Assembly: GCA_001776935.1 (NCBI GenBank)
Contig: MFDN01000001.1
Span: 19,619-83,618 of the forward strand
Origin: Candidatus Daviesbacteria bacterium RIFCSPLOWO2_01_FULL_39_23
GTDB lineage: Bacteria; Patescibacteriota; Microgenomatia; Daviesbacterales; UBA10151
Reading direction: 5' to 3'
Length of the DNA stretch: 64,000 nt
In this document: one piece after another, positions 4,634 to 57,989 of the stretch
Layout: each line of letters begins with the position of its first letter
Numbering within the stretch: the first letter of the stretch is position 1
Made by a program: the position numbers and the translations under genes
Notes under the pieces: model-generated
What the model was told of the DNA's origin: nothing
Databases searched by the model: none
What the model saw: the letters and a program-made list of their open reading frames with translations, nothing else

Positions 4634-4903
4634 ATGCTGAATGCGAAAGCTTTTGCTAACGCCGCATCGTTGGTGATGGCAGTATGGGTTGTGGGCTGCG
4701 CTTTGCTGGCATATGTAATGCCTGATTTACTTTTTTCTATCTCGCAGTCCTGGACTCATACTATAAATCTCGGGGCAGTCAGAGCGCCGTTTAATCCCGG
4801 TTTGGGATCGCTAATTCTTGGTTTTGTCAGTGCGGTGGGATTGACCTGGGTAACAACTTACGGGACAGTTGCCCTTTACAATAAATTTGCAAAGAAAGGT
4901 TAG
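4634..4903 (+). CDS. Small hypothetical membrane protein (89 aa)
   Basis: MLNAKAFANAASLVMAVWVVGCALLAYV..., two predicted TM helices. SD aaggggtg 7 nt upstream of ATG. Confidence 0.45.
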   Translation: MLNAKAFANAASLVMAVWVVGCALLAYVMPDLLFSISQSWTHTINLGAVRAPFNPGLGSLILGFVSAVGLTWVTTYGTVALYNKFAKKG

Positions 4904-27653: not shown

Positions 27654-28139
27654 ATGACTAATAATGACAGTTCAAGGAATACGAAAGACGTATACCTGAC
27701 ATCAAAAGGTTTGCTTGAATCCAAAGAAGAATTGGAATACCTAAAAAAAACTAAAAGGGCTCAAATTGCCGAAAAAATTCATCAGGCCCGCGAATATGGA
27801 GATTTGGCAGAGAATTCCGAATATGATACAGCCATGGAAGATCAGGCTATGATGGAAAGCCGGATTGCCCAGCTTGAAAGTATTCTCAAAAGCGCAAAAG
27901 TCATAGCAGATAAACATACTCAGGATTTTGTAGTGATCGGATCAACTGTCAAAATAGAAATGGATGACGGGATTGATGAATTTACTATTGTTGGAAGAGT
28001 TGAAGCAGATCCGTCTAAGAAAAAAATATCCAATGAATCCCCTTTGGGTTCGGCTTTGGTGGGTGCCAAAAAAGGTGAAGAAGTGGAAGTAGCAACTCCA
28101 ATTGTCAGATATAAATGCAAAGTTTTGGAGATAAAATGA
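27654..28139 (+). CDS. greA: Transcription elongation factor GreA
   Basis: LTSKGLLESKEELEYLKKTKRAQIAEKIHQAREYGDLAENSEYDTAMEDQAMMESRIAQLESIL (GreA N-terminal coiled-coil with acidic tip) plus C-terminal FKBP-like domain. Confidence 0.9.
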   Translation: MTNNDSSRNTKDVYLTSKGLLESKEELEYLKKTKRAQIAEKIHQAREYGDLAENSEYDTAMEDQAMMESRIAQLESILKSAKVIADKHTQDFVVIGSTVKIEMDDGIDEFTIVGRVEADPSKKKISNESPLGSALVGAKKGEEVEVATPIVRYKCKVLEIK

Positions 28140-29440
28140 TGGCAAAAGTATCAAGGGATGAGCCCTTACTCGAATTTAATCCAAAACTGCCCAAACTGTC
28201 TAAAAACGAACAGGCTGTCTTAAAGCTTTTAGTTGAGGCAGGTAGGTTAATTGTTCCTATTTACCTTGAACAGGAAAAACTCGCTCAGGTTAAAATTGAT
28301 AAAGCAGAAATTGAGAGATCTGCCAAAAAAGACCCCTCATTTTCATCTCCTTACACCAGCGTAGAAAGATTAAACGGAAAACTGGTAGCTATTCCCTATC
28401 ATATTAAATATGCAGCACCGCTTAAGCCTGTTGCAGATAAATTAAATGAAGCTGCAAATATTTCCGATAACAAAGAATTCGGAAAAGCTTTAAAGATACA
28501 GGCAAAAGTCTTATTGGATGGTAATTATGAAAAAGCATGGGAAGCCTGGTTAAAGATGAAACCTAATAGTTTGGATATTTCTATTGGTCCGCTTCATCAT
28601 CTGGCTAATCAATTTTTCTTTCCAAAGGCGGCTTATCATGCCTGGGTGGGAGTTATGGAAAAAGAAGGAACAATCAGATTCAATAACTACAAAACAGTGA
28701 CACTTAGCGCCAGAAGAAAGACGTTAACGCCTAAGGAAAGAATTGATCCTGCCAGTATCAAAGCAATAGTTTTGGATGCGGTGTTATTTGCTGGAATTAT
28801 GGCTAGAACAAAATTTGTGGGATTAACTTTACCGATTGATGTTAATGTAGTTGAAAAATACGGTGTCCAAGCAACACTTTTTAATCAACCTAATGATTTA
28901 AGATTAAAAGATCAAATTTTACCTACTTTTAATAAGATATTTTCAAAAGGGTTTAAAGAGGGGTTTAGCAAGGAGGATTTAAGAAGAGGATATCTAAGAA
29001 GTGCTGCCTTGCATGATCTTGCTCATAGTTATTTATACTATAAAAATGCCGCTAAAAATTTGGGGGATGATTTTTATACGGTATCTGAGCTTGCCGCTAC
29101 AGTATTAGGGCTTCGTTTAGCGGGTTACTTACTTCTAAAGGACAGAATTACAGAAAAAATGTTGGAATCAATGATCGTGGCTTTTATCAGCAGAAGTGTT
29201 TATCTAATGAGGGAGGAGGATAAAGATAATAAACTGATGAGTAACTATACTTTAGGAAGTAGAATATTTATGAATTTCATGTTTGAAAGCGGGGCTTTGA
29301 AGGAATTTAAGGATCTTATTATTGTGAATTTTACCAAAGTATTTGTTTCAATAAACGATTTATCTTCAATGCTTGAAAGTTTGCTTGCGCACGGAACCAA
29401 AGTTGACGCAGGATCTTTTGTGAAAAAATATTCTCAATGA
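28136..29440 (+). CDS. Hypothetical protein (~435 aa), conserved-looking but unassignable
   Basis: ATGA overlap with greA stop. Contains AALHDLAHSYLYY (HExxH-like with Asp). No confident family. Confidence 0.5.
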   Translation: MMAKVSRDEPLLEFNPKLPKLSKNEQAVLKLLVEAGRLIVPIYLEQEKLAQVKIDKAEIERSAKKDPSFSSPYTSVERLNGKLVAIPYHIKYAAPLKPVADKLNEAANISDNKEFGKALKIQAKVLLDGNYEKAWEAWLKMKPNSLDISIGPLHHLANQFFFPKAAYHAWVGVMEKEGTIRFNNYKTVTLSARRKTLTPKERIDPASIKAIVLDAVLFAGIMARTKFVGLTLPIDVNVVEKYGVQATLFNQPNDLRLKDQILPTFNKIFSKGFKEGFSKEDLRRGYLRSAALHDLAHSYLYYKNAAKNLGDDFYTVSELAATVLGLRLAGYLLLKDRITEKMLESMIVAFISRSVYLMREEDKDNKLMSNYTLGSRIFMNFMFESGALKEFKDLIIVNFTKVFVSINDLSSMLESLLAHGTKVDAGSFVKKYSQ

Positions 29441-29488: not shown

Positions 29489-30373
29489 ATGTTTGCAATG
29501 GAAGCGAAAAGAGCGCCAGTTTTACCGGTCAGTTTATTACAGGGTTTAAAGCCCTTTGAAACCGTAACTATTAAGGGGATTGATTACAATACTTTTAGAG
29601 TAACAAAGAGTAATATAGGCTTTTTAAGAAATGAAATAGTTCATCCTTTTGAGCAACCTCTACGCTATCGACCAATTCCTACTGCTTTGCAGGTTCGTCA
29701 CAATGTGTCCTTACGGGGAGAAGTTACTACTGCCAGTACGCCCGGACAGAATGGTTCAATTATTGGAGTATCATCTCAGGAATTGAGGAAAGTTATTATA
29801 GAGGAGGAGCGGATGAATGCATCGGTTTCACTACTTAGGTCAGTTGCCCAATCAAGGCAAAAAGAAGAAATTGGCGGAACTATGGCAAGGTTGCAGATTG
29901 TCAGACATCAACCTGTTGTTGTTTTGGGAAGAACAGGGTCATGGCGAATAATTCGTATGCTGGAAGAAATACCTTATGTGGAAGAAATTGTACCTGTTCA
30001 TCGAAGGATGGATAAAAGATCTATACAGGCAATGAAAACAGGGTTTTACCCGGCTGAATTTAACGAAATAGAACGAATTGATAAAGACGATTCGGATACA
30101 ATCACAGGAATTTGCCGAAATATTTATTCTCCGGATTCTGCCGAGAGCCGTAAACCTCCGTTAGACAATCCTGAAGGTATGCGAGTATATAGACAAATGG
30201 AAGAATCGGGATGGAAACCTAATGATGCAATCCGGTATGCTGCATGGATTAATAGAGAATTACTTCAGGAGCTAATACTTGCAGGAGAGGCGATCCCAGA
30301 GTTAAAATCAAAGGCTCTTTCTCCTGCTCGGAAATTTGTGGAAAAGATAAAAAGTATTATAAGGTTAAATTAA
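29489..30373 (+). CDS. Hypothetical protein (294 aa)
   Basis: ORF with no recognisable motif. Confidence 0.45.
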   Translation: MFAMEAKRAPVLPVSLLQGLKPFETVTIKGIDYNTFRVTKSNIGFLRNEIVHPFEQPLRYRPIPTALQVRHNVSLRGEVTTASTPGQNGSIIGVSSQELRKVIIEEERMNASVSLLRSVAQSRQKEEIGGTMARLQIVRHQPVVVLGRTGSWRIIRMLEEIPYVEEIVPVHRRMDKRSIQAMKTGFYPAEFNEIERIDKDDSDTITGICRNIYSPDSAESRKPPLDNPEGMRVYRQMEESGWKPNDAIRYAAWINRELLQELILAGEAIPELKSKALSPARKFVEKIKSIIRLN

Positions 30374-30425: not shown

Positions 30426-32726
30426 ATGTATTGGGCAGACAGGGTAGCAAAAGAAATAATTAATTCAAAAAAGTATATGCCGTATTGGGTGGATGATATG
30501 TTTACACCCTCAGGCTTTGCTCATATTGGTTCTTTAAGAGGACCTCTTGTGCACGACCTTATCTACAAAGCTTTACTGCATAGCGGTCAGGATGTCAAAT
30601 CAACTTATGTTTTTAATGATTTTGACCCCATAGACGGACTGCCAAAAGAACTGGAAAAAGATTTTTCCAAATATTTAGGATTTCCTTTAAGAAATGTTCC
30701 TTCTCCCGAAAAAGGCTTTAAAAGTTTTGCCCACTTTTTTGCCGAGGATTTCAAAAAAGTCTTAAAAAGTTTAGGAGCAAATCCGCAATTTTTGTCCTCT
30801 TATGATATGTACCACGAGGGTAAATTTGACCAGGCGATTAAGTTGGCTTTGGATAATGCTGAAAAAATTCAGGATATTTATCAGAAGGTTAGCGGCAGTA
30901 AGAAAAAAGAGGCAGGCTGGCTGCCGCTTCAGGTAATTTGTCAAATGTGCGGCAAGTTAGGCACCACGAGGGTTCATGATTGGGACGGCGAAACCGTTGC
31001 TTATACTTGTGAACCTGATATGGTGAAATGGGCAAAGGGATGTGGCTATACCGGCAGGATTTCTCCTTTTGGGGGAAACGGAAAATTGCCCTGGAAAGTA
31101 GACTGGCCGGCTCACTGGATGGTAATGGGGGTAACAATTGAAGGGGCGGGTAAGGACCATTCCTCAGCCGGCGGATCAAGAGATATTGCCAGGGAACTGG
31201 TAAAAGAAGTTTTTAATATTGAAGAACCATACAATCTTCCTTACGAATTTTTCCTGATTGGCGGTAAAAAAATGGCTTCATCCAAGGGTTTGGGTTTGAA
31301 AGCCCGTGATTTTAACCAGTTGCTGCCTTCGGAGCTTGCCCGTTTCCTTTTTTCCAGGACAGATTACAAGCAAGCAGTAGAATTTGATCCTCTAGGCACC
31401 ATGGCCATACCGGATCTTTATGATGAATATGATCGCTGTTTCAATGCTTATCTTGAGAGATCAAATGAGGATTTGGCGAGAATATTTGAAATGTCTCAAA
31501 TAAAAAGTCTTCCTTCTAAGGACAAAATTCTTTTGCCAAGATTTCGGGATATTGTAAATTACATACAAATACCAAATATAGATGTATTAAAAAAATATGA
31601 AGAAATAAAAGGCAAAAAATTGTCCGGGATAGAAATAGAAATCATTAAGGAAAGGACAGAATATGCCAGAGTTTGGATTAGAGAATATGCTCCGGAAGAA
31701 TTTAAGCTGCAATTTAGCGAAACTTTACCGGAGAAGGCCAGGGAATTAACGGATGAACAAAAGCAGTATTTGAAAAAAGCAATTAATTTAATTGAAGAAA
31801 ATGATAATCCGGAAAAGTTGCAGCTGGTTTTGTATGATTTGGCTAAAGAATTAAAAATTGATGCCAAATCAGCTTTTGCTGCTATTTATACTGTTTTAAT
31901 TGGTAAAGCTTATGGTCCCAAAGCCGGCTGGTTGATACTTTCTTTAGATAAAAAATTTGTCCGGCAGAGATTTGATGAGGTTCTGCAGATTGAAAATGCA
32001 ACGGTTGCTGTAAATGATGTGAAATTAAACAACTTAAATAAGCCGGAAATTTTTTCTATTGATAAAGAGTTAAAGAGAAAATTTCCTTCTGTATCGGTGG
32101 GTATTGCCATTATTAAGGGTGTAGAAATTAAAAAAGCAGATGAGAGATTAGAGAAGGAAAAACAGGAATTGCTTGCAAGTTTGCAAGGATTGACTACTGA
32201 ACAAATTGGACAATATCCGGAAGTTTTAAATTACCGGAAATTATATAAAGAAACTGGAATAGATTGGCACTCAAGAAGACCAAGTCCGGAAGCGCTTTTG
32301 CGAAGAATTGCTTTAAATAAAGGTTTATATGCTGTCAATACCTGTGTGGATGCTTATAACTTGGTGGTAATGAAGTATCGGGTTTCTGCAGGAGCATTTG
32401 ATTTGGATAGAATCAAATTCCCAACCATTCTTCGATCAGCAGAAGAGGGTGAGGAAATATTGCTGTTAGGCGATGAGCAGCAGACAAAATATAAACAAGG
32501 TGAAGTAGCCTATTTCGACCAAAAAGGCGGATTTAATATTGATTTTAATTACAGGGATGCTAAAAGAACTGCAGTGCAGCTTGAGACAAAAAATTTATAT
32601 ATCAATGTTGACGGGATTTATGACATTACTCCGCAAAAAGTAGAAGAAGTTTTGAAGGAAGTTTGCGATATTATAATTAAATATTGCGGCGGCCAAGTAG
32701 AGGTTTTTGGAATGGAAGCAGGATAA
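30426..32726 (+). CDS. lysS: Class I lysyl-tRNA synthetase fused to a C-terminal B3/4 (PheT-like) domain
   Basis: MYWADRVAKEI, FAHIGSLRG (HIGH-type), LPWKVDWPAHW, KMASSKG (KMSKS) match archaeal-type class I LysRS through ~aa 520. C-terminal ~240 aa has SVGIAIIKGVEI...NTCVDAYNLVVMKYRVSAGAFDLDRIK, matching the B3/4 domain signature. Confidence 0.85.
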   Translation: MYWADRVAKEIINSKKYMPYWVDDMFTPSGFAHIGSLRGPLVHDLIYKALLHSGQDVKSTYVFNDFDPIDGLPKELEKDFSKYLGFPLRNVPSPEKGFKSFAHFFAEDFKKVLKSLGANPQFLSSYDMYHEGKFDQAIKLALDNAEKIQDIYQKVSGSKKKEAGWLPLQVICQMCGKLGTTRVHDWDGETVAYTCEPDMVKWAKGCGYTGRISPFGGNGKLPWKVDWPAHWMVMGVTIEGAGKDHSSAGGSRDIARELVKEVFNIEEPYNLPYEFFLIGGKKMASSKGLGLKARDFNQLLPSELARFLFSRTDYKQAVEFDPLGTMAIPDLYDEYDRCFNAYLERSNEDLARIFEMSQIKSLPSKDKILLPRFRDIVNYIQIPNIDVLKKYEEIKGKKLSGIEIEIIKERTEYARVWIREYAPEEFKLQFSETLPEKARELTDEQKQYLKKAINLIEENDNPEKLQLVLYDLAKELKIDAKSAFAAIYTVLIGKAYGPKAGWLILSLDKKFVRQRFDEVLQIENATVAVNDVKLNNLNKPEIFSIDKELKRKFPSVSVGIAIIKGVEIKKADERLEKEKQELLASLQGLTTEQIGQYPEVLNYRKLYKETGIDWHSRRPSPEALLRRIALNKGLYAVNTCVDAYNLVVMKYRVSAGAFDLDRIKFPTILRSAEEGEEILLLGDEQQTKYKQGEVAYFDQKGGFNIDFNYRDAKRTAVQLETKNLYINVDGIYDITPQKVEEVLKEVCDIIIKYCGGQVEVFGMEAG

Positions 32727-32731
32727 AAAAT

Positions 32732-33319
32732 ATGACCAGAGAAGAAGCTTACAAGTTAATGACTCAAATGCTCCAAAGCAAAAATCTGCAAAAGCATGGA
32801 TTGGCTGTTGAGGCAATCATGCGGGAGCTTTGTAAATATCTTAAGCTGAAAAATCCTGAGTTGCCTCTGGAGGAATTCGACGAAGAAGAGTGGGCAATTG
32901 TGGGGCTTTTGCATGATGCAGATTATGAACTGGTTGCTAAAGATTTAAGCAAGCATACCCTGGTTACTGAGGAAAAGTTAAGAGCTTTGGGCGGGGCATC
33001 TGAAAGGTTAATTAATGGGATTAAAGCTCATCACGAGGGAGTAAAAACTTCCCGGGATAATTTAATGGAAAAATCTGTTTATGCTGCAGATGAGCTCTCG
33101 GGCCTTATTACTGCTGTTGCTTTGGTAAGGCCAGACAAGAAATTATCTTCTGTTACAGTTGATTCGGTAATGAAAAAATTTACTCAAAAAGGCTTTGCAG
33201 CAGGTGCGCACAGGGGACAAATTTTAGCATGCGAAAAAGAATTAAATATTCCTTTGGAAGAATTTGTAAGTATTGCTTTAAAGGCTATGCAGGGTATATC
33301 AGATGAGCTCGACTTATAA
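32732..33319 (+). CDS. HD-domain phosphohydrolase
   Basis: HGLAVEAIMREL...VGLLHDADYE...KAHHEG (HD motif). ORF-track start 32684 overlaps lysS; ATG at 32732 chosen. Confidence 0.6.
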   Translation: MTREEAYKLMTQMLQSKNLQKHGLAVEAIMRELCKYLKLKNPELPLEEFDEEEWAIVGLLHDADYELVAKDLSKHTLVTEEKLRALGGASERLINGIKAHHEGVKTSRDNLMEKSVYAADELSGLITAVALVRPDKKLSSVTVDSVMKKFTQKGFAAGAHRGQILACEKELNIPLEEFVSIALKAMQGISDELDL

Positions 33320-43164: not shown

Positions 43165-44700
43165 ATGAATATTTTTTCACAAAAGCTTAAAATATTTTTT
43201 CTTATACTGATTATTTTTAATACCTTACTTTCCGCTTATTGGTTAATTAATGGAGATATTCATTATGATGTGGATGTTTCCCGTGACTTTTTGGTAATGG
43301 AGGATATTATTGAGAATAATCATTTTACCCTACTGGGTCCGCGTTCAGGAGCCATTCCGGGGATTTTCCATGGTCCACTTTGGTTTTATATTAACTTACC
43401 TGCATTTTTTCTGGGTAAAGGCGATCCTTTGATTGTTGGTTGGTTTTGGTTTTGCTTATCCGTATTTTTCCTGCTGCTTGTATTTTGGGTTACAAAAAAA
43501 CTGTTTGATACAGAGGTGGCATTTCTATCGACCCTTCTTCTTTCAGCTAATTCCATTATAAATCCCTCAATAGGCCTGAAGAATTTTTATAATCCCTATG
43601 GAGCGGTATTCTTAACGCCATTATTCTTTTGGTTATTCCATCGCTATATTAATAGTTTAAAAGCTAAATACTTAATTTTTAGTTTATTTACATTAGGTTT
43701 TATTATTCAATTTCAAATGGCTTTCGGAATACCGATACTTATTGCGCTTACAGTTTTTTTAGGATATTTGTTATTTATCAAGAGGAAACTCATCCATTTT
43801 CTTTCATATTTAATTTTGTTAATTCCTATTTCAACCTTTATATTATTTGATATAAAGCATGACTGGCTGCAGTATAAGGCATTGATTCGATTCCTTAGCC
43901 AAAATAGTAGCTCGGGTAATATTTTGAATATTTTTCAAGACCGTATAAGGGTATTATTTTTTGACTTTTTTGATTTTTTATCTCCGGGGAAAAATATTCT
44001 TACTATTTTTCAGGCAATTTTTTTCCTTGTTGTGTTAATTATTGGTATTAAAAGCAATAATAATCCGAAGAGAAAAGTTTACATTTTATTTTCTATAATT
44101 TTTTTTGGTTTTTGGGTAGTCTCTTTATTTTATCAAGGCGGAACCGGTAATTATTTTTGGCCGCTTTTGCCGCTTGCTGTCATTGTTTTCTGCTCATTTT
44201 ATCGCGTCTTAAAAGCGAGAATTTTTCTTGGGGTTTTCTGCCTTCTTTACCTGGTTAATGTGTATGCGGGAATCTCGGCAATCATGGATTTTGAAACCGA
44301 TGTCGATAGAAGAGGTCCTCATAGCTGGGCTTTTAATTTATATGTTGCTAAAAAAATCTATGCGGATGCAAAAGTTGATTTTGGATATTTTAACTTTTCG
44401 CCGGACAGGTATGCTTATCAACAAAGATATGCCATGAGCTATGCCAAAAAATATTCCCCAAATCTTAACTCCTTCTCTTTTGTTAAAAAGCCGCTTACTT
44501 ATTTGGTAGAAGTAGATCCTCCGAAGGATAGACCGGATTTAAATGGTACCAGCTGGAGAATTAGCGATGTTGGTATTGACCGATTGCCTGATCAGATTTT
44601 TCGCTTTGACTTTATTCAGGTTGAGAAATACTTCCTAAATAATGAAGAGATAAAAATAGAACCTAATGCATACTTGTTAGACAAGGCATTTTTAAGATAA
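43165..44700 (+). CDS. PMT/ArnT-like GT-C membrane protein, paralog A1
   Basis: HYDVDVSRDFLVMEDII...LLGPRSGAIPGIFHGPLWFYINLPAFF...KKLF... Same architecture as A2 (46216..47742). Confidence 0.55.
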   Translation: MNIFSQKLKIFFLILIIFNTLLSAYWLINGDIHYDVDVSRDFLVMEDIIENNHFTLLGPRSGAIPGIFHGPLWFYINLPAFFLGKGDPLIVGWFWFCLSVFFLLLVFWVTKKLFDTEVAFLSTLLLSANSIINPSIGLKNFYNPYGAVFLTPLFFWLFHRYINSLKAKYLIFSLFTLGFIIQFQMAFGIPILIALTVFLGYLLFIKRKLIHFLSYLILLIPISTFILFDIKHDWLQYKALIRFLSQNSSSGNILNIFQDRIRVLFFDFFDFLSPGKNILTIFQAIFFLVVLIIGIKSNNNPKRKVYILFSIIFFGFWVVSLFYQGGTGNYFWPLLPLAVIVFCSFYRVLKARIFLGVFCLLYLVNVYAGISAIMDFETDVDRRGPHSWAFNLYVAKKIYADAKVDFGYFNFSPDRYAYQQRYAMSYAKKYSPNLNSFSFVKKPLTYLVEVDPPKDRPDLNGTSWRISDVGIDRLPDQIFRFDFIQVEKYFLNNEEIKIEPNAYLLDKAFLR

Positions 44701-44711
44701 ACTAATATTTT

Positions 44712-46199
44712 GTGATTAAGAAATATTTACGTTCGCCATTTATTATACTTTTTTTTATTCTTATTTTAGGATTATTTTTTAGACTTTATAAACTGGAAAT
44801 ATTTTACTCTTGGGGGCATGATCAGGATTTATTTGCATGGATAGCAAAAGATATCGTGATTGACCATCATCTGCGCCTGATTGGACAGGAAACAAGCATA
44901 ACAGGGGTATTTATAGGTCCCATCTTTTATTATCTGATGGCGGTTTCTCTTGCGCTTTTTAATATGAATCCTCTGGGTGCTAATATTTCTGCAGTAATAA
45001 TTTCCTTATCAACAATTGTTAGTATTTATTGGGTTTTTAGTCAGTTTTTTGGGAAAAAAATCGGATTAACTGGAGCCTTTTTTTATGCAGTTTCTCCGGG
45101 TATCATACTTTTTGACAGGTGGATTGTTCCAACGCAACCTACCAGTCTGTGGTGTGTCTGGTTTTTGTACATCCTTCTCTCAATTCTCAAAGGTAATTTC
45201 CCCTTGGTGTTATTGGGTTTGCTAATTGGTTTGATCTGGCATGTTCATGTAGCTTTTATCCCGCTGCTTATACTTATACCTATCGCTTGGTGGTTATCTA
45301 AAATGCAGGGGTATAGAATTAAAATTACTGCAAAAAGCATAGTAATTTCTCTTCTTTTAATTTTTACCTTATTACTTCCTTTCTTCACCTTTGAGATTAG
45401 GCATGGATTCCAACAGATTAAGGGTTTGACCAGGGCTACTTATGAAGAAAAAGGAGACGTGAAAGGCATGGATAGGTTAAGAAAAGTTTTTAACGTTTCC
45501 GGAAGAGCGTTATCAGGCATAGTGCTTCTGGATAAAAATGCTTCTCTACCGAAGGAGTTTTTTATGTCTTTGGTCCCTCTTTTGCTCCTCTTAATTTTTT
45601 ATTTGTATAAGACAAAGATCATAACAAGAAATCAGACTGTAATTATCGGTTTATGGATTGGTATTGATTTATTGGGTCAATTCTTGTCAAAAAGATCTAT
45701 ACCGGAATATTATTTTGCTAATTTTATTGTGGTACAAATTTTAGTAATATCTGTATTTATTTCCACTTTTAATTTAAAAAGGGGATTGTCGTTTACTCCT
45801 TTATTGTTAGGAATGTACTTATTTGCAGCGACTTTTTGGTTTGTCACACAACCAGATGATCCGGGCGGATTCTTGCAAAAGAGAAGAGCTATAGAATACA
45901 TAAAAAATAATGCAGGAAACAAAGGGTATCCATGTGTGGCGATAAATTTTATTGAAGGATACGAGGGATTACCTAATGGATTCAGATACTTGTTTTGGTT
46001 GAATAACTTAAAAATTATCACACCGGGAAATGATATTCCTGTTTATAGTATAGTGACGCCTTGGACGATTTCGGCAAATGAAATTAATGCCAAATTTGGG
46101 GTTTTTGGTATCATTGAACCTCCCTCGAAAATAGTTGATCCGGAGCTTTGTTCTGACTCAAGCAGGCAATTACTACCTATATGGGGCTTTACAAATTAA
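44712..46199 (+). CDS. PMT/ArnT-like GT-C membrane protein, paralog B1
   Basis: FFRLYKLEIFYSWGHDQDLFAWIAKDIV...RLIGQETSITGVFIGPIFYYL...YAVSPG...R fits the PMT_2/ArnT N-terminal pattern. Close paralog of 52767..54272. Confidence 0.6.
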   Translation: MIKKYLRSPFIILFFILILGLFFRLYKLEIFYSWGHDQDLFAWIAKDIVIDHHLRLIGQETSITGVFIGPIFYYLMAVSLALFNMNPLGANISAVIISLSTIVSIYWVFSQFFGKKIGLTGAFFYAVSPGIILFDRWIVPTQPTSLWCVWFLYILLSILKGNFPLVLLGLLIGLIWHVHVAFIPLLILIPIAWWLSKMQGYRIKITAKSIVISLLLIFTLLLPFFTFEIRHGFQQIKGLTRATYEEKGDVKGMDRLRKVFNVSGRALSGIVLLDKNASLPKEFFMSLVPLLLLLIFYLYKTKIITRNQTVIIGLWIGIDLLGQFLSKRSIPEYYFANFIVVQILVISVFISTFNLKRGLSFTPLLLGMYLFAATFWFVTQPDDPGGFLQKRRAIEYIKNNAGNKGYPCVAINFIEGYEGLPNGFRYLFWLNNLKIITPGNDIPVYSIVTPWTISANEINAKFGVFGIIEPPSKIVDPELCSDSSRQLLPIWGFTN

Positions 46200-46215
46200 A
46201 AATAATATTCGAAGT

Positions 46216-47742
46216 ATGATTGAAGTTGTAAAAAAATGGCATTATTGGGCCATAGGTTTTATTATCTTGAATATTTTCTTAAGTTTAAGATGGTTAATTA
46301 ATGATGACATTCGTTTTGATGTAGATATATCCCGTGATTTTTTATTAATAAAGGAAATTATTACCCAAAAACCCATTACTTTGATTGGATCTCATACATC
46401 AATAAGCGGAGTTTTTCATGGACCGTTATGGTATTACCTGAATGTACCAGCTTTTTTTATCTCTTCCGGTAATCCAGTACTGATTGGATGGTTTTGGTGG
46501 GGATTGTCAATTTTAACTCTTGCTATAATATATTTTATTTCATTAAAATTATTTAATAAATCTACTGCTCTTCTGGCGACCTTACTTTACAGTGCAAATT
46601 CTATTATTAATCCTAATTATGGTCTGAAGATGTTTTTTCCTCCATATGGAGCTGTAATGTTGTTTCCAATATTTTTCTATCTTTTTATCCAGTATATTTT
46701 TAATAAAAAAGTCAAATATCTGGCATTTGCCATACTTATTTTAGGATTTATTATTCAGTTCGAAATGGCTTTTGGGATTCCTATATTGGGATTGATGGTA
46801 TTATTTCTAGTATATTTCTTATCCAGCAGAAAATTATTGAAACATTTTTTGATTCTTCCACTAATTTTTTTGCCGCTTTCCACATTTATCATTTTTGAGA
46901 TTCGACATAATTTTTTGCAGATTCAATCTCTGATTGGATATTTTGAATCTCAATTGGGCAAGAATCAATTAAATTTATACATGATTTTTATTGATAAAAT
47001 CAGAGGTATTTTTACGGATACATTTTTCTTGTTGATGCAAGATAATAGAAGCCTCAGCTGGACTTATTCTATTTTATTTGTAATTTTAATTTCCAGGATT
47101 AAATCTCCTCTTAAAAAAATTTATTGGATGTTTTTATTTTTTTATTTAGGCTATTGGGTTATTCATCTTTCTTTAAAACCCCTTTGGAGCAGTTATTACT
47201 GGCCACTCCTTACTGTAATAATTATTCTATATGCAGGTTTTATAAACTTTTTCTCCAAGAAGATATTTATTTTATTTTTTATACCGTTACTTTTATGGAA
47301 TATGTATATTGGATTAAAGTATATTAAAGATTTTGAAATGAATGTATCAGTGAGAGGTAAAAACAGTTGGGCATTTAATGAGTTAATTGCTCGAACGGTC
47401 TTTGAAGATGCAGATAGTGATTTTGGTTATTTCATTTTTATGCCAGAAAGATGGGTTTTTCAGGGATGGTATGCCTTGGATTTTTTACAGAGTCAATATC
47501 CGCAAAGAAAAGCACACCCTTTTGCAAAACAAAAATTGACGTATTTAATCATATATGATTCGCCAAAAGACTATCAGGATCCTATTAGTATGGGATGGAG
47601 AATTACCGATCTTAAAATTACCCAAAAACCGAAGGAGAATAAACGAATCGGAAACGTTGAGATTCAAAAATATTATTTATCCGAAGAAGAATTGCGATTA
47701 CCCGTGAATCCTTATTTGCTTAATTCAACTTTTTTCCGCTGA
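46216..47742 (+). CDS. PMT/ArnT-like GT-C membrane protein, paralog A2
   Basis: RFDVDISRDFLLIKEIITQKPITLIGSHTSISGVFHGPLWYYLNVPAFF. Close paralog of A1, including C-terminal domain motifs (SWAFN...DFGYF...KLTYL...PKD). ORF-track start 46135 trimmed to avoid overlap. Confidence 0.55.
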   Translation: MIEVVKKWHYWAIGFIILNIFLSLRWLINDDIRFDVDISRDFLLIKEIITQKPITLIGSHTSISGVFHGPLWYYLNVPAFFISSGNPVLIGWFWWGLSILTLAIIYFISLKLFNKSTALLATLLYSANSIINPNYGLKMFFPPYGAVMLFPIFFYLFIQYIFNKKVKYLAFAILILGFIIQFEMAFGIPILGLMVLFLVYFLSSRKLLKHFLILPLIFLPLSTFIIFEIRHNFLQIQSLIGYFESQLGKNQLNLYMIFIDKIRGIFTDTFFLLMQDNRSLSWTYSILFVILISRIKSPLKKIYWMFLFFYLGYWVIHLSLKPLWSSYYWPLLTVIIILYAGFINFFSKKIFILFFIPLLLWNMYIGLKYIKDFEMNVSVRGKNSWAFNELIARTVFEDADSDFGYFIFMPERWVFQGWYALDFLQSQYPQRKAHPFAKQKLTYLIIYDSPKDYQDPISMGWRITDLKITQKPKENKRIGNVEIQKYYLSEEELRLPVNPYLLNSTFFR

Positions 47743-56435: not shown

Positions 56436-57989
56436 ATGATTACATTAAATATTATGCCTAGAACACTTCTTATTGTGATTATATTAATAACTGGTGTTTT
56501 ATTTCGTCTTGCTCTGACAGCAAACGGGAATTTTCTTTTTCATATGGATAGCGCAAGAGATATGGTTGATGTAAGAGAGATGGTAATCTTGAAAAAGATT
56601 CGCTTAATAGGACCCACTTCTGCAATTGATGGTTTATTCAGCGGACCTGCATGGTATTATTTGTTAAGCGTCCCTTTTATACTTTCCGGGGGAGATCCAT
56701 ATGCTGCCATTCTCATGCAGATAATTCTTTGGGCAATAGGCGGTTTTTTCCTATTAAAACTGGTTAGCAGCTGGGGAAAGTGGTTAATTGTTCCCATTGG
56801 CTTTATTTGGATTGCTTCAAATCATATAGTTTTAACTAGCTTTTATGCTTTTAATCCCACCCCTGTCATGCTGCTTTCGCCCTTATTTATATATTTATTA
56901 TTTAAATATTTAGAAAACGGGAGAGCAATTTATGGGATTTTCACCTGGTTTTTAGCGGGATTATTTTTTAATTTTGAGATGAATTTTGGTGTGTTTACGC
57001 CAATAATAATTGGTTCCTTAGTATGGACAAAAAATATTAATTTAGTTAAACAAAAAGCATTCTGGATGGGGTTTGTTCTTTTTATTTTAGCTTTGATGCC
57101 GCAAATTATTTTTGATTTAAAACATCAATTCATAATGAGTAAAGCTATCTTGAGACATTTAGCAGAAAATTCAAACGCAAATATAAATTTCCCTGTACGC
57201 TTCCAGGGGACTATAGAAAGTTTCTATAATACGTTTCTGCCGACTCTTTTTAACAGTAAATTATTAACAGGAATTATATTAGTGCTTTTCATTCCCATAA
57301 TATATAGATTTTTTAAGAATGGGACAAAAGAGATAGCGGTTTTGATCAGTATCATTTTTATTTTTGTTCCATTTTTGGGGTATTTAATTTTACCTGTGAG
57401 TATTAATCCGTGGCATTTAGGAGGAGAAATGGCTGTATTGTTAGTGCTGATAGCTTTTCTGTTAAAAAAACTTATGGATGGAGGAAAATTAGATAAAACA
57501 GTTTCCTTAATTATTTCAATTATGATTATTTTTCTTGGTCTTTCTAATATTGTTAATTTTTTCATAAACGATTTTAAAAAAACCAATGAAGACCCGTCAC
57601 TTTATAGAAATGAGATTGCTGCCATAGATTATGTATACCAAAAAGCCGGGGATAGAAACTTTAAAGTTTATGACTATCTTCCATCTATAATTGATTATCC
57701 TTACCAATATTTAATTTGGTGGTATGGGTTAAAAAAATATGGCTACTTGCCGGCAGATTATGCGTATGCTCCTAACAGAACCCCCTATATTTCAAATAAA
57801 GAAAGTTTTTCCGCAACTTCCGAGTCTTTGCAGAATAGGCAGGATTCTGATTTAGTTTTTTTGATAAAGGAACCCAATAGGAATAATACGCGTTCCGGTT
57901 GGGAGGGGAACTTTATTAAAATGGAAAGTATCGAAAAGCAGAAACTGGGTTCTTTAGAAGTTGAAATTAGAAAAGAAATTATTCAATAA
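56436..57989 (+). CDS. PMT/ArnT-like GT-C membrane protein, paralog C
   Basis: FHMDSARDMVDVREMVILKKIRLIGPTSAIDGLFSGPAWYYLLSVPFI with the same first-loop pattern as the other paralogs. 517 aa polytopic. Confidence 0.55.
   Translation: MITLNIMPRTLLIVIILITGVLFRLALTANGNFLFHMDSARDMVDVREMVILKKIRLIGPTSAIDGLFSGPAWYYLLSVPFILSGGDPYAAILMQIILWAIGGFFLLKLVSSWGKWLIVPIGFIWIASNHIVLTSFYAFNPTPVMLLSPLFIYLLFKYLENGRAIYGIFTWFLAGLFFNFEMNFGVFTPIIIGSLVWTKNINLVKQKAFWMGFVLFILALMPQIIFDLKHQFIMSKAILRHLAENSNANINFPVRFQGTIESFYNTFLPTLFNSKLLTGIILVLFIPIIYRFFKNGTKEIAVLISIIFIFVPFLGYLILPVSINPWHLGGEMAVLLVLIAFLLKKLMDGGKLDKTVSLIISIMIIFLGLSNIVNFFINDFKKTNEDPSLYRNEIAAIDYVYQKAGDRNFKVYDYLPSIIDYPYQYLIWWYGLKKYGYLPADYAYAPNRTPYISNKESFSATSESLQNRQDSDLVFLIKEPNRNNTRSGWEGNFIKMESIEKQKLGSLEVEIRKEIIQ

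What the first reader, a model, noticed from the sequence alone, without database searches (positions are those of the whole stretch)
30426..32726. Class I lysyl-tRNA synthetase fused to a C-terminal B3/4 (PheT-type tRNA-binding/editing) domain
Residues 1 to ~520 align with archaeal-type class I LysRS (HIGH-like HIGS, KMASSKG). The extra ~240 aa carry the B3/4 signature NTCVDAYNLVVMKYRVSAGAFDLDRIK. That domain is otherwise found in PheRS beta-subunit editing modules and in free-standing B3/4 proteins. I am not aware of a LysRS-B3/4 fusion; it could supply tRNA binding or trans-editing.
Basis: partly seen in the sequence, partly recalled or inferred. Interest (0 to 1): 0.55.

Follow-up and report, generated by a model that had tools for sequence, protein, structure and literature searches.

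The report
Lysyl-tRNA synthetase with tethered editing-type deacylase
This gene encodes a class I lysyl-tRNA synthetase joined by a flexible linker to a complete CtdA-type aminoacyl-tRNA deacylase, and because related bacteria attach the same module to the unrelated class II enzyme, it probably proofreads tRNA-Lys, something no lysyl-tRNA synthetase is known to do with a dedicated domain.

Summary
Window 30426-32726 (+) is one uninterrupted 766-aa ORF. It holds a class I LysRS (Pfam tRNA-synt_1f 1.7e-93; TIGR00467 391 bits), a variable linker, and a B3/4 module (Pfam 4.5e-22).

The fusion is not an artefact. At least 120 protein clusters and at least 74 species-level genomes, mainly Microgenomates (Patescibacteria), have the same architecture.

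The same module, with an identical 9-site pocket signature and up to 73% identity, is also fused to the C-terminus of class II LysRS at the same genomic position, and it also occurs free-standing. Relatives with a CtdA-like pocket are fused to ArgRS.

Best reading (about 0.55): a tethered post-transfer editing domain for mischarged tRNA-Lys; the substrate is unknown. I found no description of this in the searchable literature. It is a new variant of a known kind, of moderate to high interest to synthetase specialists.

The parts
30426..32726 (+). Complete ORF: class I LysRS fused to a CtdA-type B3/4 module (766 aa plus the TAA stop)
30426..31505 (+). Class I catalytic (Rossmann) domain, residues 1-360. 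It includes the HIGH-like HIGS (residues 33-36, nt 30522-30533), the KMSKS-like KMASSKG (residues 282-288, nt 31269-31289) and an invariant four-Cys cluster (C172, C175, C195, C206).
   Evidence: Pfam PF01921 E 1.7e-93. Invariant columns in the 47-sequence alignment A2. Mean 68% identity to homologues.
31506..31985 (+). Helical anticodon-binding domain, residues 361-520
   Evidence: Pfam PF19269 at 404-519. Aligns with 1irx up to residue 516. Mean 43% identity.
31986..32042 (+). Flexible linker, residues about 521-539
   Evidence: AF2 pLDDT below 50 for residues 524-532 and full-length pTM of only 0.63. In alignment A2, residues 521-545 show 25% mean identity, and the stretch between the R515 and P554 equivalents varies from 35 to 55 residues.
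32043..32723 (+). CtdA-type B3/4 aminoacyl-tRNA deacylase module, residues about 540-766. Pocket and catalytic positions: R617, R618, Y635, N638, D642, N645 (= CtdA N105), G656 (= G116), F658 (= E118), D659, N704 (= C166), D706, R710, D711 (= Q173), T715, N727 (= I189).
32732..33319 (+). HD-domain protein whose ATG lies 5 nt after the LysRS stop. It is a recurrent partner of LysRS::B3/4. I am not certain it belongs to the same functional unit.
   Evidence: Sequence. Pfam PF01966. It lies downstream in 18-20 of 74 LysRS-I loci and is fused in-frame in L023, L024, L033 and P0027. It is also fused to class II LysRS.

Best explanation
The protein is the cell's lysyl-tRNA synthetase (class I) carrying an autonomous CtdA-family aminoacyl-tRNA deacylase on a flexible tether of about 20 residues. 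The N-terminal 520 residues charge tRNA-Lys. The C-terminal module hydrolyses the aminoacyl ester of tRNA-Lys when the synthetase has attached the wrong amino acid. It probably recaptures the 3' end of the product at high local concentration (tethered trans-editing), rather than through a rigid cis channel of the CP1 type. The pocket differs from the canavanine pocket of CtdA. It has an aromatic residue (F/Y658) where CtdA has E118, and two Asp (D706, D711) where CtdA has R168 and Q173. That suggests a substrate with a cationic amine side chain, such as a lysine analogue: ornithine, diaminobutyrate, thialysine, hydroxylysine or similar.

Shown: the architecture, the fold, the conservation, retention of the residues essential in CtdA, and recurrent fusion to both LysRS classes.
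Inferred: hydrolytic activity, tRNA-Lys as the substrate carrier, the tethered mode of action, and the nature of the mischarged amino acid.
For: (2) The residues whose mutation inactivates CtdA, N105 and G116 (PMC12449066), are kept in 37/38 and 38/38 (G or A) LysRS-fused modules. D642, D659, R710 and T715 are also family-wide invariants.
(3) The module evolves as slowly as the catalytic core (65% against 68% identity). The anticodon-binding domain (43%) and the linker (25%) drift.
(4) The same module is fused to the C-terminus of class II LysRS, which is structurally unrelated. Examples are P0126, P0127, P0140, P0188, P0240, P0298, P0300, P0309, P0311 and P0314, plus complete 729-755-aa ORFs in L042, L044, L048, L054, L069 and L070. 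The class II body is a true LysRS (3a74, E 1e-122).
(5) Class II-borne modules reach 73% identity to this one and rank 12th and 17th of 295, ahead of most class I-borne ones. They share the identical 9-site signature RYNGFNDDN.
(6) Both fusion types sit in the same neighbourhood, GreA ... LysRS::B3/4 - HD - SerRS - SecA.
(7) The module also exists unlinked and free-standing with the same signature: P0175 in L085 and P0164 in L002. So it is an autonomous unit.
(8) By analogy, relatives fused to ArgRS carry the CtdA-like signature YPNGECREV, pairing the deacylase with the synthetase whose error CtdA is known to correct.
(9) The linker is predicted disordered and varies in length.
Against: No biochemical data exist for any member of this clade. 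The specificity residues of CtdA (E118, C166, Q173) are not kept, so activity cannot simply be transferred. Class I LysRS is reputed to be discriminating, and no LysRS is known to need post-transfer editing. Known LysRS proofreading is pre-transfer cyclisation, plus trans-editing by ProXp-ST1/2 (PMC7373986). I could not examine coordinates or inter-domain error estimates, so the geometry is inferred only from pLDDT and pTM. I could not check whether the same genomes have an intact PheRS-beta B3/4 domain or a second LysRS. The module tree is an unbootstrapped NJ tree.
Confidence: 0.55

Rival explanations
1. The module is a catalytically silent tRNA-binding or chaperoning appendage. It would raise the affinity of LysRS for tRNA-Lys, much as Trbp111/EMAPII-type domains do for other synthetases.
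For: B3/4 folds contact the tRNA acceptor end. The motif HSRRPSPEALLRR is rich in conserved Arg. Appended tRNA-binding domains are common in synthetases (PMC7373986).
Against: The residues essential for CtdA catalysis and the pocket-lining positions are highly conserved, not only the basic surface. The module is autonomous and occurs free-standing. One class II fusion (P0310) carries a separate tRNA_bind domain in addition to B3/4. The pocket signature changes with the partner synthetase (Lys-type versus Arg-type), which is expected for amino-acid recognition and not for generic tRNA binding.
Confidence: 0.12
2. The module is an active deacylase, but its target is not tRNA-Lys. It could replace a missing PheRS editing domain (Tyr-tRNA-Phe), remove canavanine from tRNA-Arg, or act broadly. 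The attachment to LysRS would then be only a convenient co-expression device.
For: Free-standing deacylases often act on products of synthetases other than their evolutionary relatives (PMC11415595). CtdA recognises mainly the aminoacyl moiety (PMC12449066 abstract). No pheT or argS lies in the window, so this could not be checked.
Against: The module recurs on both LysRS classes and keeps the same genomic slot. Distinct clades and signatures go with ArgRS, TyrRS and MetRS fusions. PheRS residues H265 and G318 are replaced by Gly and Asp. CtdA residues E118 and C166 are replaced by Phe and Asn.
Confidence: 0.15
3. The module acts on correctly charged Lys-tRNA-Lys. It might hydrolyse it as a regulatory measure, or hand lysine to another acceptor, by analogy with the LysRS-MprF fusion LysX of mycobacteria, where the fused partner consumes Lys-tRNA-Lys.
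For: The acidic and aromatic pocket (F/Y658, D706, D711) could in principle fit lysine itself (inference). The precedent of LysRS fused to a Lys-tRNA-using enzyme comes from my own knowledge and was not checked here.
Against: All characterised B3/4 enzymes are hydrolytic proofreaders that spare the cognate product (PMC12449066). A tethered hydrolase of the cognate product would be a futile ATP-consuming cycle in organisms with very small energy budgets. No acceptor-binding or transferase domain is present.
Confidence: 0.08
4. The fusion is an assembly or gene-calling artefact, and two genes have been read as one.
For: A few relatives appear split: L084 (a frameshift in the linker), L083 (overlapping ORFs) and L001 (an in-frame TGA).
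Against: The open frame is continuous here. It is also continuous in at least 120 independent protein clusters and in 74 LysRS-I plus 6 LysRS-II loci from species-representative genomes of many studies. The linker region shows no conserved stop or start codon.
Confidence: 0.01

Closest known systems
CtdA, canavanyl-tRNA(Arg) deacylase (free-standing B3/4 protein; PDB 9f7e, 9mkl)
   Different: Sequence identity is only 16-21%. The specificity residues differ: E118 to F/Y, C166 to N/C/T, R168 to D, Q173 to D, I189 to N/F. It is covalently tethered to LysRS rather than free, and it is not associated with ArgRS or canavanine metabolism.
B3/B4 editing domain of bacterial PheRS beta subunit
   Different: It lacks the PheRS-specific helices and the B1/B2/B5 context. 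H265 becomes G and G318 becomes D. It is attached by a flexible linker at the C-terminus of a monomeric class I enzyme, not embedded in a heterotetramer.
Archaeal-type class I LysRS (P. horikoshii 1irx; TIGR00467)
   Same: The N-terminal 520 residues align end to end (E 1.5e-70) and score above the equivalog cut-off. The HIGH and KMSKS motifs, the Cys cluster and the helical anticodon-binding domain are all present.
   Different: It carries an extra C-terminal extension of about 245 residues that no characterised LysRS-I has.
Synthetase / free-standing editing-factor pairs (AlaRS/AlaX, ProRS INS/YbaK/ProXp, ThrRS/ThrRS-ed)
   Same: The evolutionary pattern is the same: one hydrolytic module is found fused to its synthetase in some lineages and free in others (PMC11415595).
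   Different: Here the module family is CtdA/B3-4 and the synthetase is LysRS, for which no such pair has been described. Uniquely, the same module serves two non-homologous synthetases of one specificity.

Membership tests
Class I lysyl-tRNA synthetase (TIGR00467 / PF01921) | Full-length match to the equivalog model above its trusted cut-off | tested here: met
   390.7 bits against a cut-off of 147.55, residues 1-517. PF01921 E 1.7e-93. 1irx E 1.5e-70.
Class I lysyl-tRNA synthetase (TIGR00467 / PF01921) | HIGH-like and KMSKS-like signature motifs that are conserved among homologues | tested here: met
   HIGS 33-36 and KMASSKG 282-288. H33, G35, S36, K282, M283, S286, K287 and G288 are invariant or nearly invariant in 47 sequences.
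Class I lysyl-tRNA synthetase (TIGR00467 / PF01921) | tRNA-dependent lysine activation and lysylation of tRNA-Lys | not testable with these tools
   This needs enzymology.
B3/4 domain superfamily (PF03483) | Profile match above the gathering threshold, and the B3/B4 fold | tested here: met
CtdA family sensu lato (free-standing CtdA-type B3/4 deacylases) | Full-length CtdA topology, including the CtdA-specific helical insert | tested here: met
CtdA family sensu lato (free-standing CtdA-type B3/4 deacylases) | Residues essential for activity (N105, G116) | tested here: met
   N645 in 37/38 and G656 (G or A) in 38/38 LysRS-fused modules. Their essentiality in CtdA comes from PMC12449066.
CtdA sensu stricto (canavanyl-tRNA-Arg deacylase, CtdA-1) | Specificity residues E118, C166, Q173 (or E) and I189 | tested here: not met
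   F658, N704, D711 and N727 in the window protein. The modal signature RYNGFNDDN contrasts with YPNGECREV in ArgRS-fused and CtdA-like free proteins.
CtdA sensu stricto (canavanyl-tRNA-Arg deacylase, CtdA-1) | Hydrolysis of canavanyl-tRNA-Arg | not testable with these tools
   This needs a deacylation assay.
PheRS beta editing domain | Editing-site residues H265, G318 and E334, plus the flanking B1/B2/B5 domains | tested here: not met
   H265 becomes G656 and G318 becomes D711. E334 was not mapped. The match to TIGR00472 pheT is only 24 bits against a cut-off of 402. No B1/B2/B5 domains are present.

The most novel reading that the evidence does not exclude
LysRS, long regarded as having no post-transfer editing domain, has one in a whole bacterial radiation (Microgenomates and some Chloroflexota). 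A dedicated Lys-type clade of the CtdA family proofreads tRNA-Lys against a lysine analogue that is not yet identified. The module has been kept through at least one in-situ swap between the non-homologous class I and class II LysRS bodies. Together with the ArgRS-, TyrRS- and MetRS-fused relatives, this would make CtdA-like proteins a general, modular editing cassette for synthetases thought to lack editing domains.
Probability: 0.4. Interest if true: 0.8.

Novelty: new variant of a known kind. Interest (0 to 1): 0.64.

Why it matters
Roughly half of the aminoacyl-tRNA synthetases are thought to lack a hydrolytic editing domain. LysRS is one of these; its known proofreading is pre-transfer.

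A conserved LysRS with a tethered deacylase would add a new fidelity checkpoint. It would point to a lysine analogue that threatens translation in ultra-small, scavenging bacteria.

It also offers a natural experiment: the same editing module works with two unrelated catalytic scaffolds, which makes it possible to separate what editing requires from the tRNA from what it requires from the synthetase.

The work also flags unreported ArgRS::CtdA-like fusions, which are directly testable as a cis version of the only characterised activity of this family.

In practice, these proteins are currently annotated simply as 'lysine--tRNA ligase', so the extra domain is invisible to users of the annotation.

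Tried and rejected
(1) Frameshift or artefact: rejected by the comparative data.
(3) 'Split' forms as evidence for separate genes: L084 turned out to be a frameshift inside the linker, and L083 has overlapping ORFs or a possible frameshift, so I do not count either as a clean gene pair. L001 has an in-frame TGA at a conserved Gly. The neighbouring genes are intact under code 11, so this is not recoding.
(4) Regulatory RNA upstream (T-box or lysine riboswitch): none found. Rfam finds only tRNA-Glu in the window. Promoter and terminator scans are at background level.
(5) A second LysRS, another B3/4 copy, DUF2000 or pheT in the window: none found. A 64-kb window cannot settle this.
(6) The HD partner as a YqeK-like Ap4A hydrolase: there is no detectable relation to any solved HD protein, so this stays speculation.
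(7) DUF2000: only a weak hit to the uncharacterised protein 2gax, and no literature.
(8) The Nat Chem 2026 tRNA-deacylase paper concerns the AlaX family and is not relevant.
(9) The afdb50 fold library was unavailable.
(10) The cluster look-up gave almost no taxon names for the ArgRS, TyrRS and MetRS fusions.
(11) I could not extract model coordinates, so there is no pocket geometry, electrostatics or inter-domain distance.

Full report
**1. Observation**

Window 30426-32726 (+) is a single ATG-initiated ORF of 766 codons with no internal stop.

- Pfam places tRNA-synt_1f at residues 2-359 (E 1.7e-93), Anticodon_2 at 404-519 (E 1.2e-5) and B3_4 at 603-755 (E 4.5e-22, 78.9 bits against a gathering score of 29.3).
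- The NCBIfam equivalog for archaeal-type LysRS (TIGR00467) scores 390.7 bits against a cut-off of 147.55 over residues 1-517.
- Against solved structures, residues 2-516 align with P. horikoshii class I LysRS 1irx (E 1.5e-70). Residues 616-736 align with two free-standing B3/4 proteins, 9f7e and 9mkl, both canavanyl-tRNA deacylase CtdA.

**2. Not an artefact, and not rare**

A search of 5.8 billion proteins returned 120 listed clusters at 54-99% identity. Nearly all are 740-780 aa, and every one is annotated with PF01921 plus PF03483. Where named, they come from Gottesmanbacteria, Levybacteria and 'Patescibacteria group', and the sources call them only 'lysine--tRNA ligase'.

A pattern scan of one genome per GTDB species found 180 loci encoding the module. 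Of the best 80, 74 have LysRS-I and the module in one ORF. One more distant cluster is named Aggregatilineales (Chloroflexota).

**3. Anatomy**

In a 47-sequence alignment, mean identity to the window protein differs sharply by region:

| Region | Residues | Mean identity |
|---|---|---|
| Catalytic domain | 1-360 | 68% |
| Anticodon-binding domain | 361-520 | 43% |
| Linker | 521-545 | 25% |
| Module | 546-766 | 65% |

The number of residues between conserved anchor points flanking the linker (the R515 and P554 equivalents) varies from 35 to 55. So the module is under purifying selection as strong as that on the essential catalytic core.

AlphaFold2 models the isolated module with pLDDT 92.8 and pTM 0.90. 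The full-length protein has pLDDT 88.4 but pTM of only 0.63, with residues 524-532 below pLDDT 50. This describes two well-folded bodies joined by a flexible tether with no confidently fixed interface.

**4. What the module is**

- Foldseek gives TM 0.79-0.82 to both CtdA structures over the whole length, against about 0.6 for PheRS beta.

It is therefore a complete CtdA-type unit and not a PheT-type domain.

I mapped the pocket residues defined for CtdA in PMC12449066 through the phmmer alignment and a 128-sequence module alignment.

- N105 and G116, whose mutation inactivates CtdA, are kept as N645 (37/38 LysRS-fused modules) and G656 (G or A, 38/38).
- D642, D659, R710 and T715 are conserved across the whole family.
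- The specificity positions differ: E118 becomes F/Y658, C166 becomes N/C/T704, R168 becomes D706, Q173 becomes D711 and I189 becomes N/F727.
- The PheRS editing residues H265 and G318 correspond to G656 and D711.

**5. The decisive comparative result**

The same module is fused to the C-terminus of class II LysRS, an enzyme with an unrelated fold.

- Contig-truncated proteins P0126, P0127, P0140 and P0188 read from the class II motif-3 region straight into the module.
- Full-length examples carry PF01336 + PF00152 + PF03483: P0240, P0298, P0300, P0309, P0311 and P0314.
- Six species-representative genomes hold complete 729-755-aa ORFs: L042, L044, L048, L054, L069 and L070.
- The class II body is a genuine LysRS (3a74, E 1e-122).

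Modules borne by class II enzymes reach 73% and 72% identity to the window's module. They rank 12th and 17th of 295, above the median (64%) of class I-borne modules. In an NJ tree, the two kinds interleave in one clade, separate from the ArgRS- and TyrRS-fused clades (no bootstrap).

A 9-site pocket signature makes the same point:

| Module context | Signature |
|---|---|
| Class I-fused (modal) | RYNGFNDDN |
| Class II-fused (modal) | RYNGFNDDN |
| Free-standing P0175 | RYNGFNDDN |
| Second subtype (class I-fused, class II-fused and free) | RYNAYCDDF |
| ArgRS-fused modules and nine free representatives | YPNGECREV |

YPNGECREV matches CtdA at N105, G116, E118 and C166.

Both fusion types occupy the same neighbourhood, GreA upstream and HD, SerRS and SecA downstream. 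This suggests that the synthetase body was exchanged in situ while the module stayed.

Truly unlinked free-standing copies exist: P0164 in L002 and P0175 in L085. Two apparent 'split' cases are a frameshift in the linker (L084) and overlapping ORFs (L083).

**6. Mechanism**

The most economical reading is a tethered post-transfer editing domain for tRNA-Lys. Five lines of evidence support it:

- The family's only characterised activity is aa-tRNA hydrolysis.
- The catalytic residues are retained and strongly conserved.
- The module is autonomous.
- It associates with lysine specificity rather than with a particular synthetase fold.
- Sister clades pair a CtdA-like pocket with ArgRS, the source of CtdA's known substrate.

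The flexible, variable linker argues for recapture of the released or partly released 3' end at high local concentration, rather than a fixed translocation channel. The pocket replaces the E118/R168 pair by an aromatic residue plus Asp and adds a second Asp. This points, by inference only, to a cationic amine side chain, that is, a lysine analogue.

Known LysRS proofreading is pre-transfer cyclisation of homocysteine, homoserine and ornithine by the class II enzyme, plus trans-editing of Ser/Thr-tRNA-Lys by ProXp-ST1/2 (PMC7373986). No LysRS editing domain is described there or in PMC11415595.

**7. Rivals**

- A silent tRNA-binding appendage is disfavoured by pocket conservation, by partner-specific pocket signatures, and by a fusion that carries a separate tRNA_bind domain (P0310).
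- A deacylase aimed at another tRNA, for example one covering for PheRS, is disfavoured by the repeated LysRS association and by the residue replacements. I could not check PheRS beta in the same genomes, and the window has no pheT.
- Action on cognate Lys-tRNA-Lys is possible but would be futile energetically and has no precedent in this fold.

**8. Novelty**

Full-text searches found nothing on a LysRS-B3/4 fusion. The four CtdA papers and two reviews do not mention fusion to LysRS or ArgRS. Hauth et al. state that no ArgRS editing domain is known (PMC10018355).

The library covers only open-access papers and bioRxiv, and the architecture is implicit in Pfam annotations, so a prior mention elsewhere cannot be excluded.

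I rate this a new variant of a known kind: a synthetase plus an editing module, in a new combination and with a new clade specificity.

**9. Limits**

- There is no biochemistry and the substrate is unknown.
- I had no access to model coordinates.
- The module tree has no support values.
- No per-genome inventory of other fidelity factors was possible.

Noticed in passing
window 32732-33319 (+); also L023, L024, L033, P0027, P0275, P0310, P0244: An HD-domain gene starts 5 nt after the LysRS stop. The same HD protein lies directly downstream in 18-20 of 74 LysRS-I::B3/4 loci. It is fused in-frame to LysRS-I::B3/4 in three species genomes and in P0027 (960-992 aa), and it is also fused to class II LysRS. 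It matches only the generic PF01966 and has no solved relative. A link to Ap4A, a LysRS by-product, is pure speculation.
   Followed up: partly
P0249, P0250, P0252, P0257, P0265, P0267, P0268, P0279, P0283, P0302 (related proteins, not in the window): Many Patescibacteria class II LysRS carry a C-terminal DUF2000 (PF09391) domain. P0302 has B3/4 plus DUF2000, and P0214 and P0217 have B3/4 plus DUF2000 without a LysRS body in the fragment. DUF2000 matches only the uncharacterised protein 2gax, weakly, and appears in no searchable paper. LysRS in this radiation seems to collect several accessory domains.
   Followed up: partly
P0339, P0341, P0349, P0372, P0375, P0385, P0399 (ArgRS); P0400, P0409 (TyrRS); P0371 (MetRS); P0351 (class IIb): CtdA-like B3/4 modules are fused to the N-terminus of ArgRS, with the CtdA-like pocket signature YPNGECREV and one case with two B3/4 stretches. 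They are also fused to the N-terminus of TyrRS, and one lies between the anticodon domain and the tRNA_bind domain of a MetRS. ArgRS is said in the literature to have no editing domain. The source organisms could not be identified.
   Followed up: partly
L001 about 4695-4697: There is an in-frame TGA exactly at the conserved Gly of class II LysRS motif 3 (EAIEH*FPPTCG). It splits a LysRS-II::B3/4 fusion into two called genes. The neighbouring genes (for example SecA, 892 aa) are intact under code 11, so this is more likely a mutation or sequencing error than UGA=Gly recoding.
   Followed up: partly
L084 1-3902: In one relative, an aminotransferase gene and an Orn/DAP/Arg decarboxylase gene (a possible lysine-biosynthesis pair) lie immediately upstream of the LysRS-I::B3/4 gene, which is frameshifted there. 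This is a single case. It could hint at a link with diaminopimelate, ornithine or lysine metabolism.
   Followed up: no
window 28115-29440 (+) and 29489-30373 (+): Two ORFs (441 and 294 aa) between greA and the LysRS gene have no Pfam or NCBIfam match. The first overlaps the end of greA by 25 nt. They are almost never found beside LysRS in related loci (1 of 71 for the 441-aa ORF, 0 of 71 for the 294-aa ORF).
   Followed up: partly
window 43165-47742 (+) and 56436-57989 (+): Four ORFs of about 500 aa (511, 495, 535 and 517 aa) have no Pfam match. Three of them are consecutive, in a lower-GC stretch (0.30-0.34).
   Followed up: no
record titles of L005, L018, L025 and many others: Many species-representative MAGs that carry this typical Microgenomates gene are titled 'uncultured Gammaproteobacteria bacterium', or Lysobacterales, Methylomirabilota and so on. 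These look like placeholder or wrong taxon labels in the deposited records.
   Followed up: no
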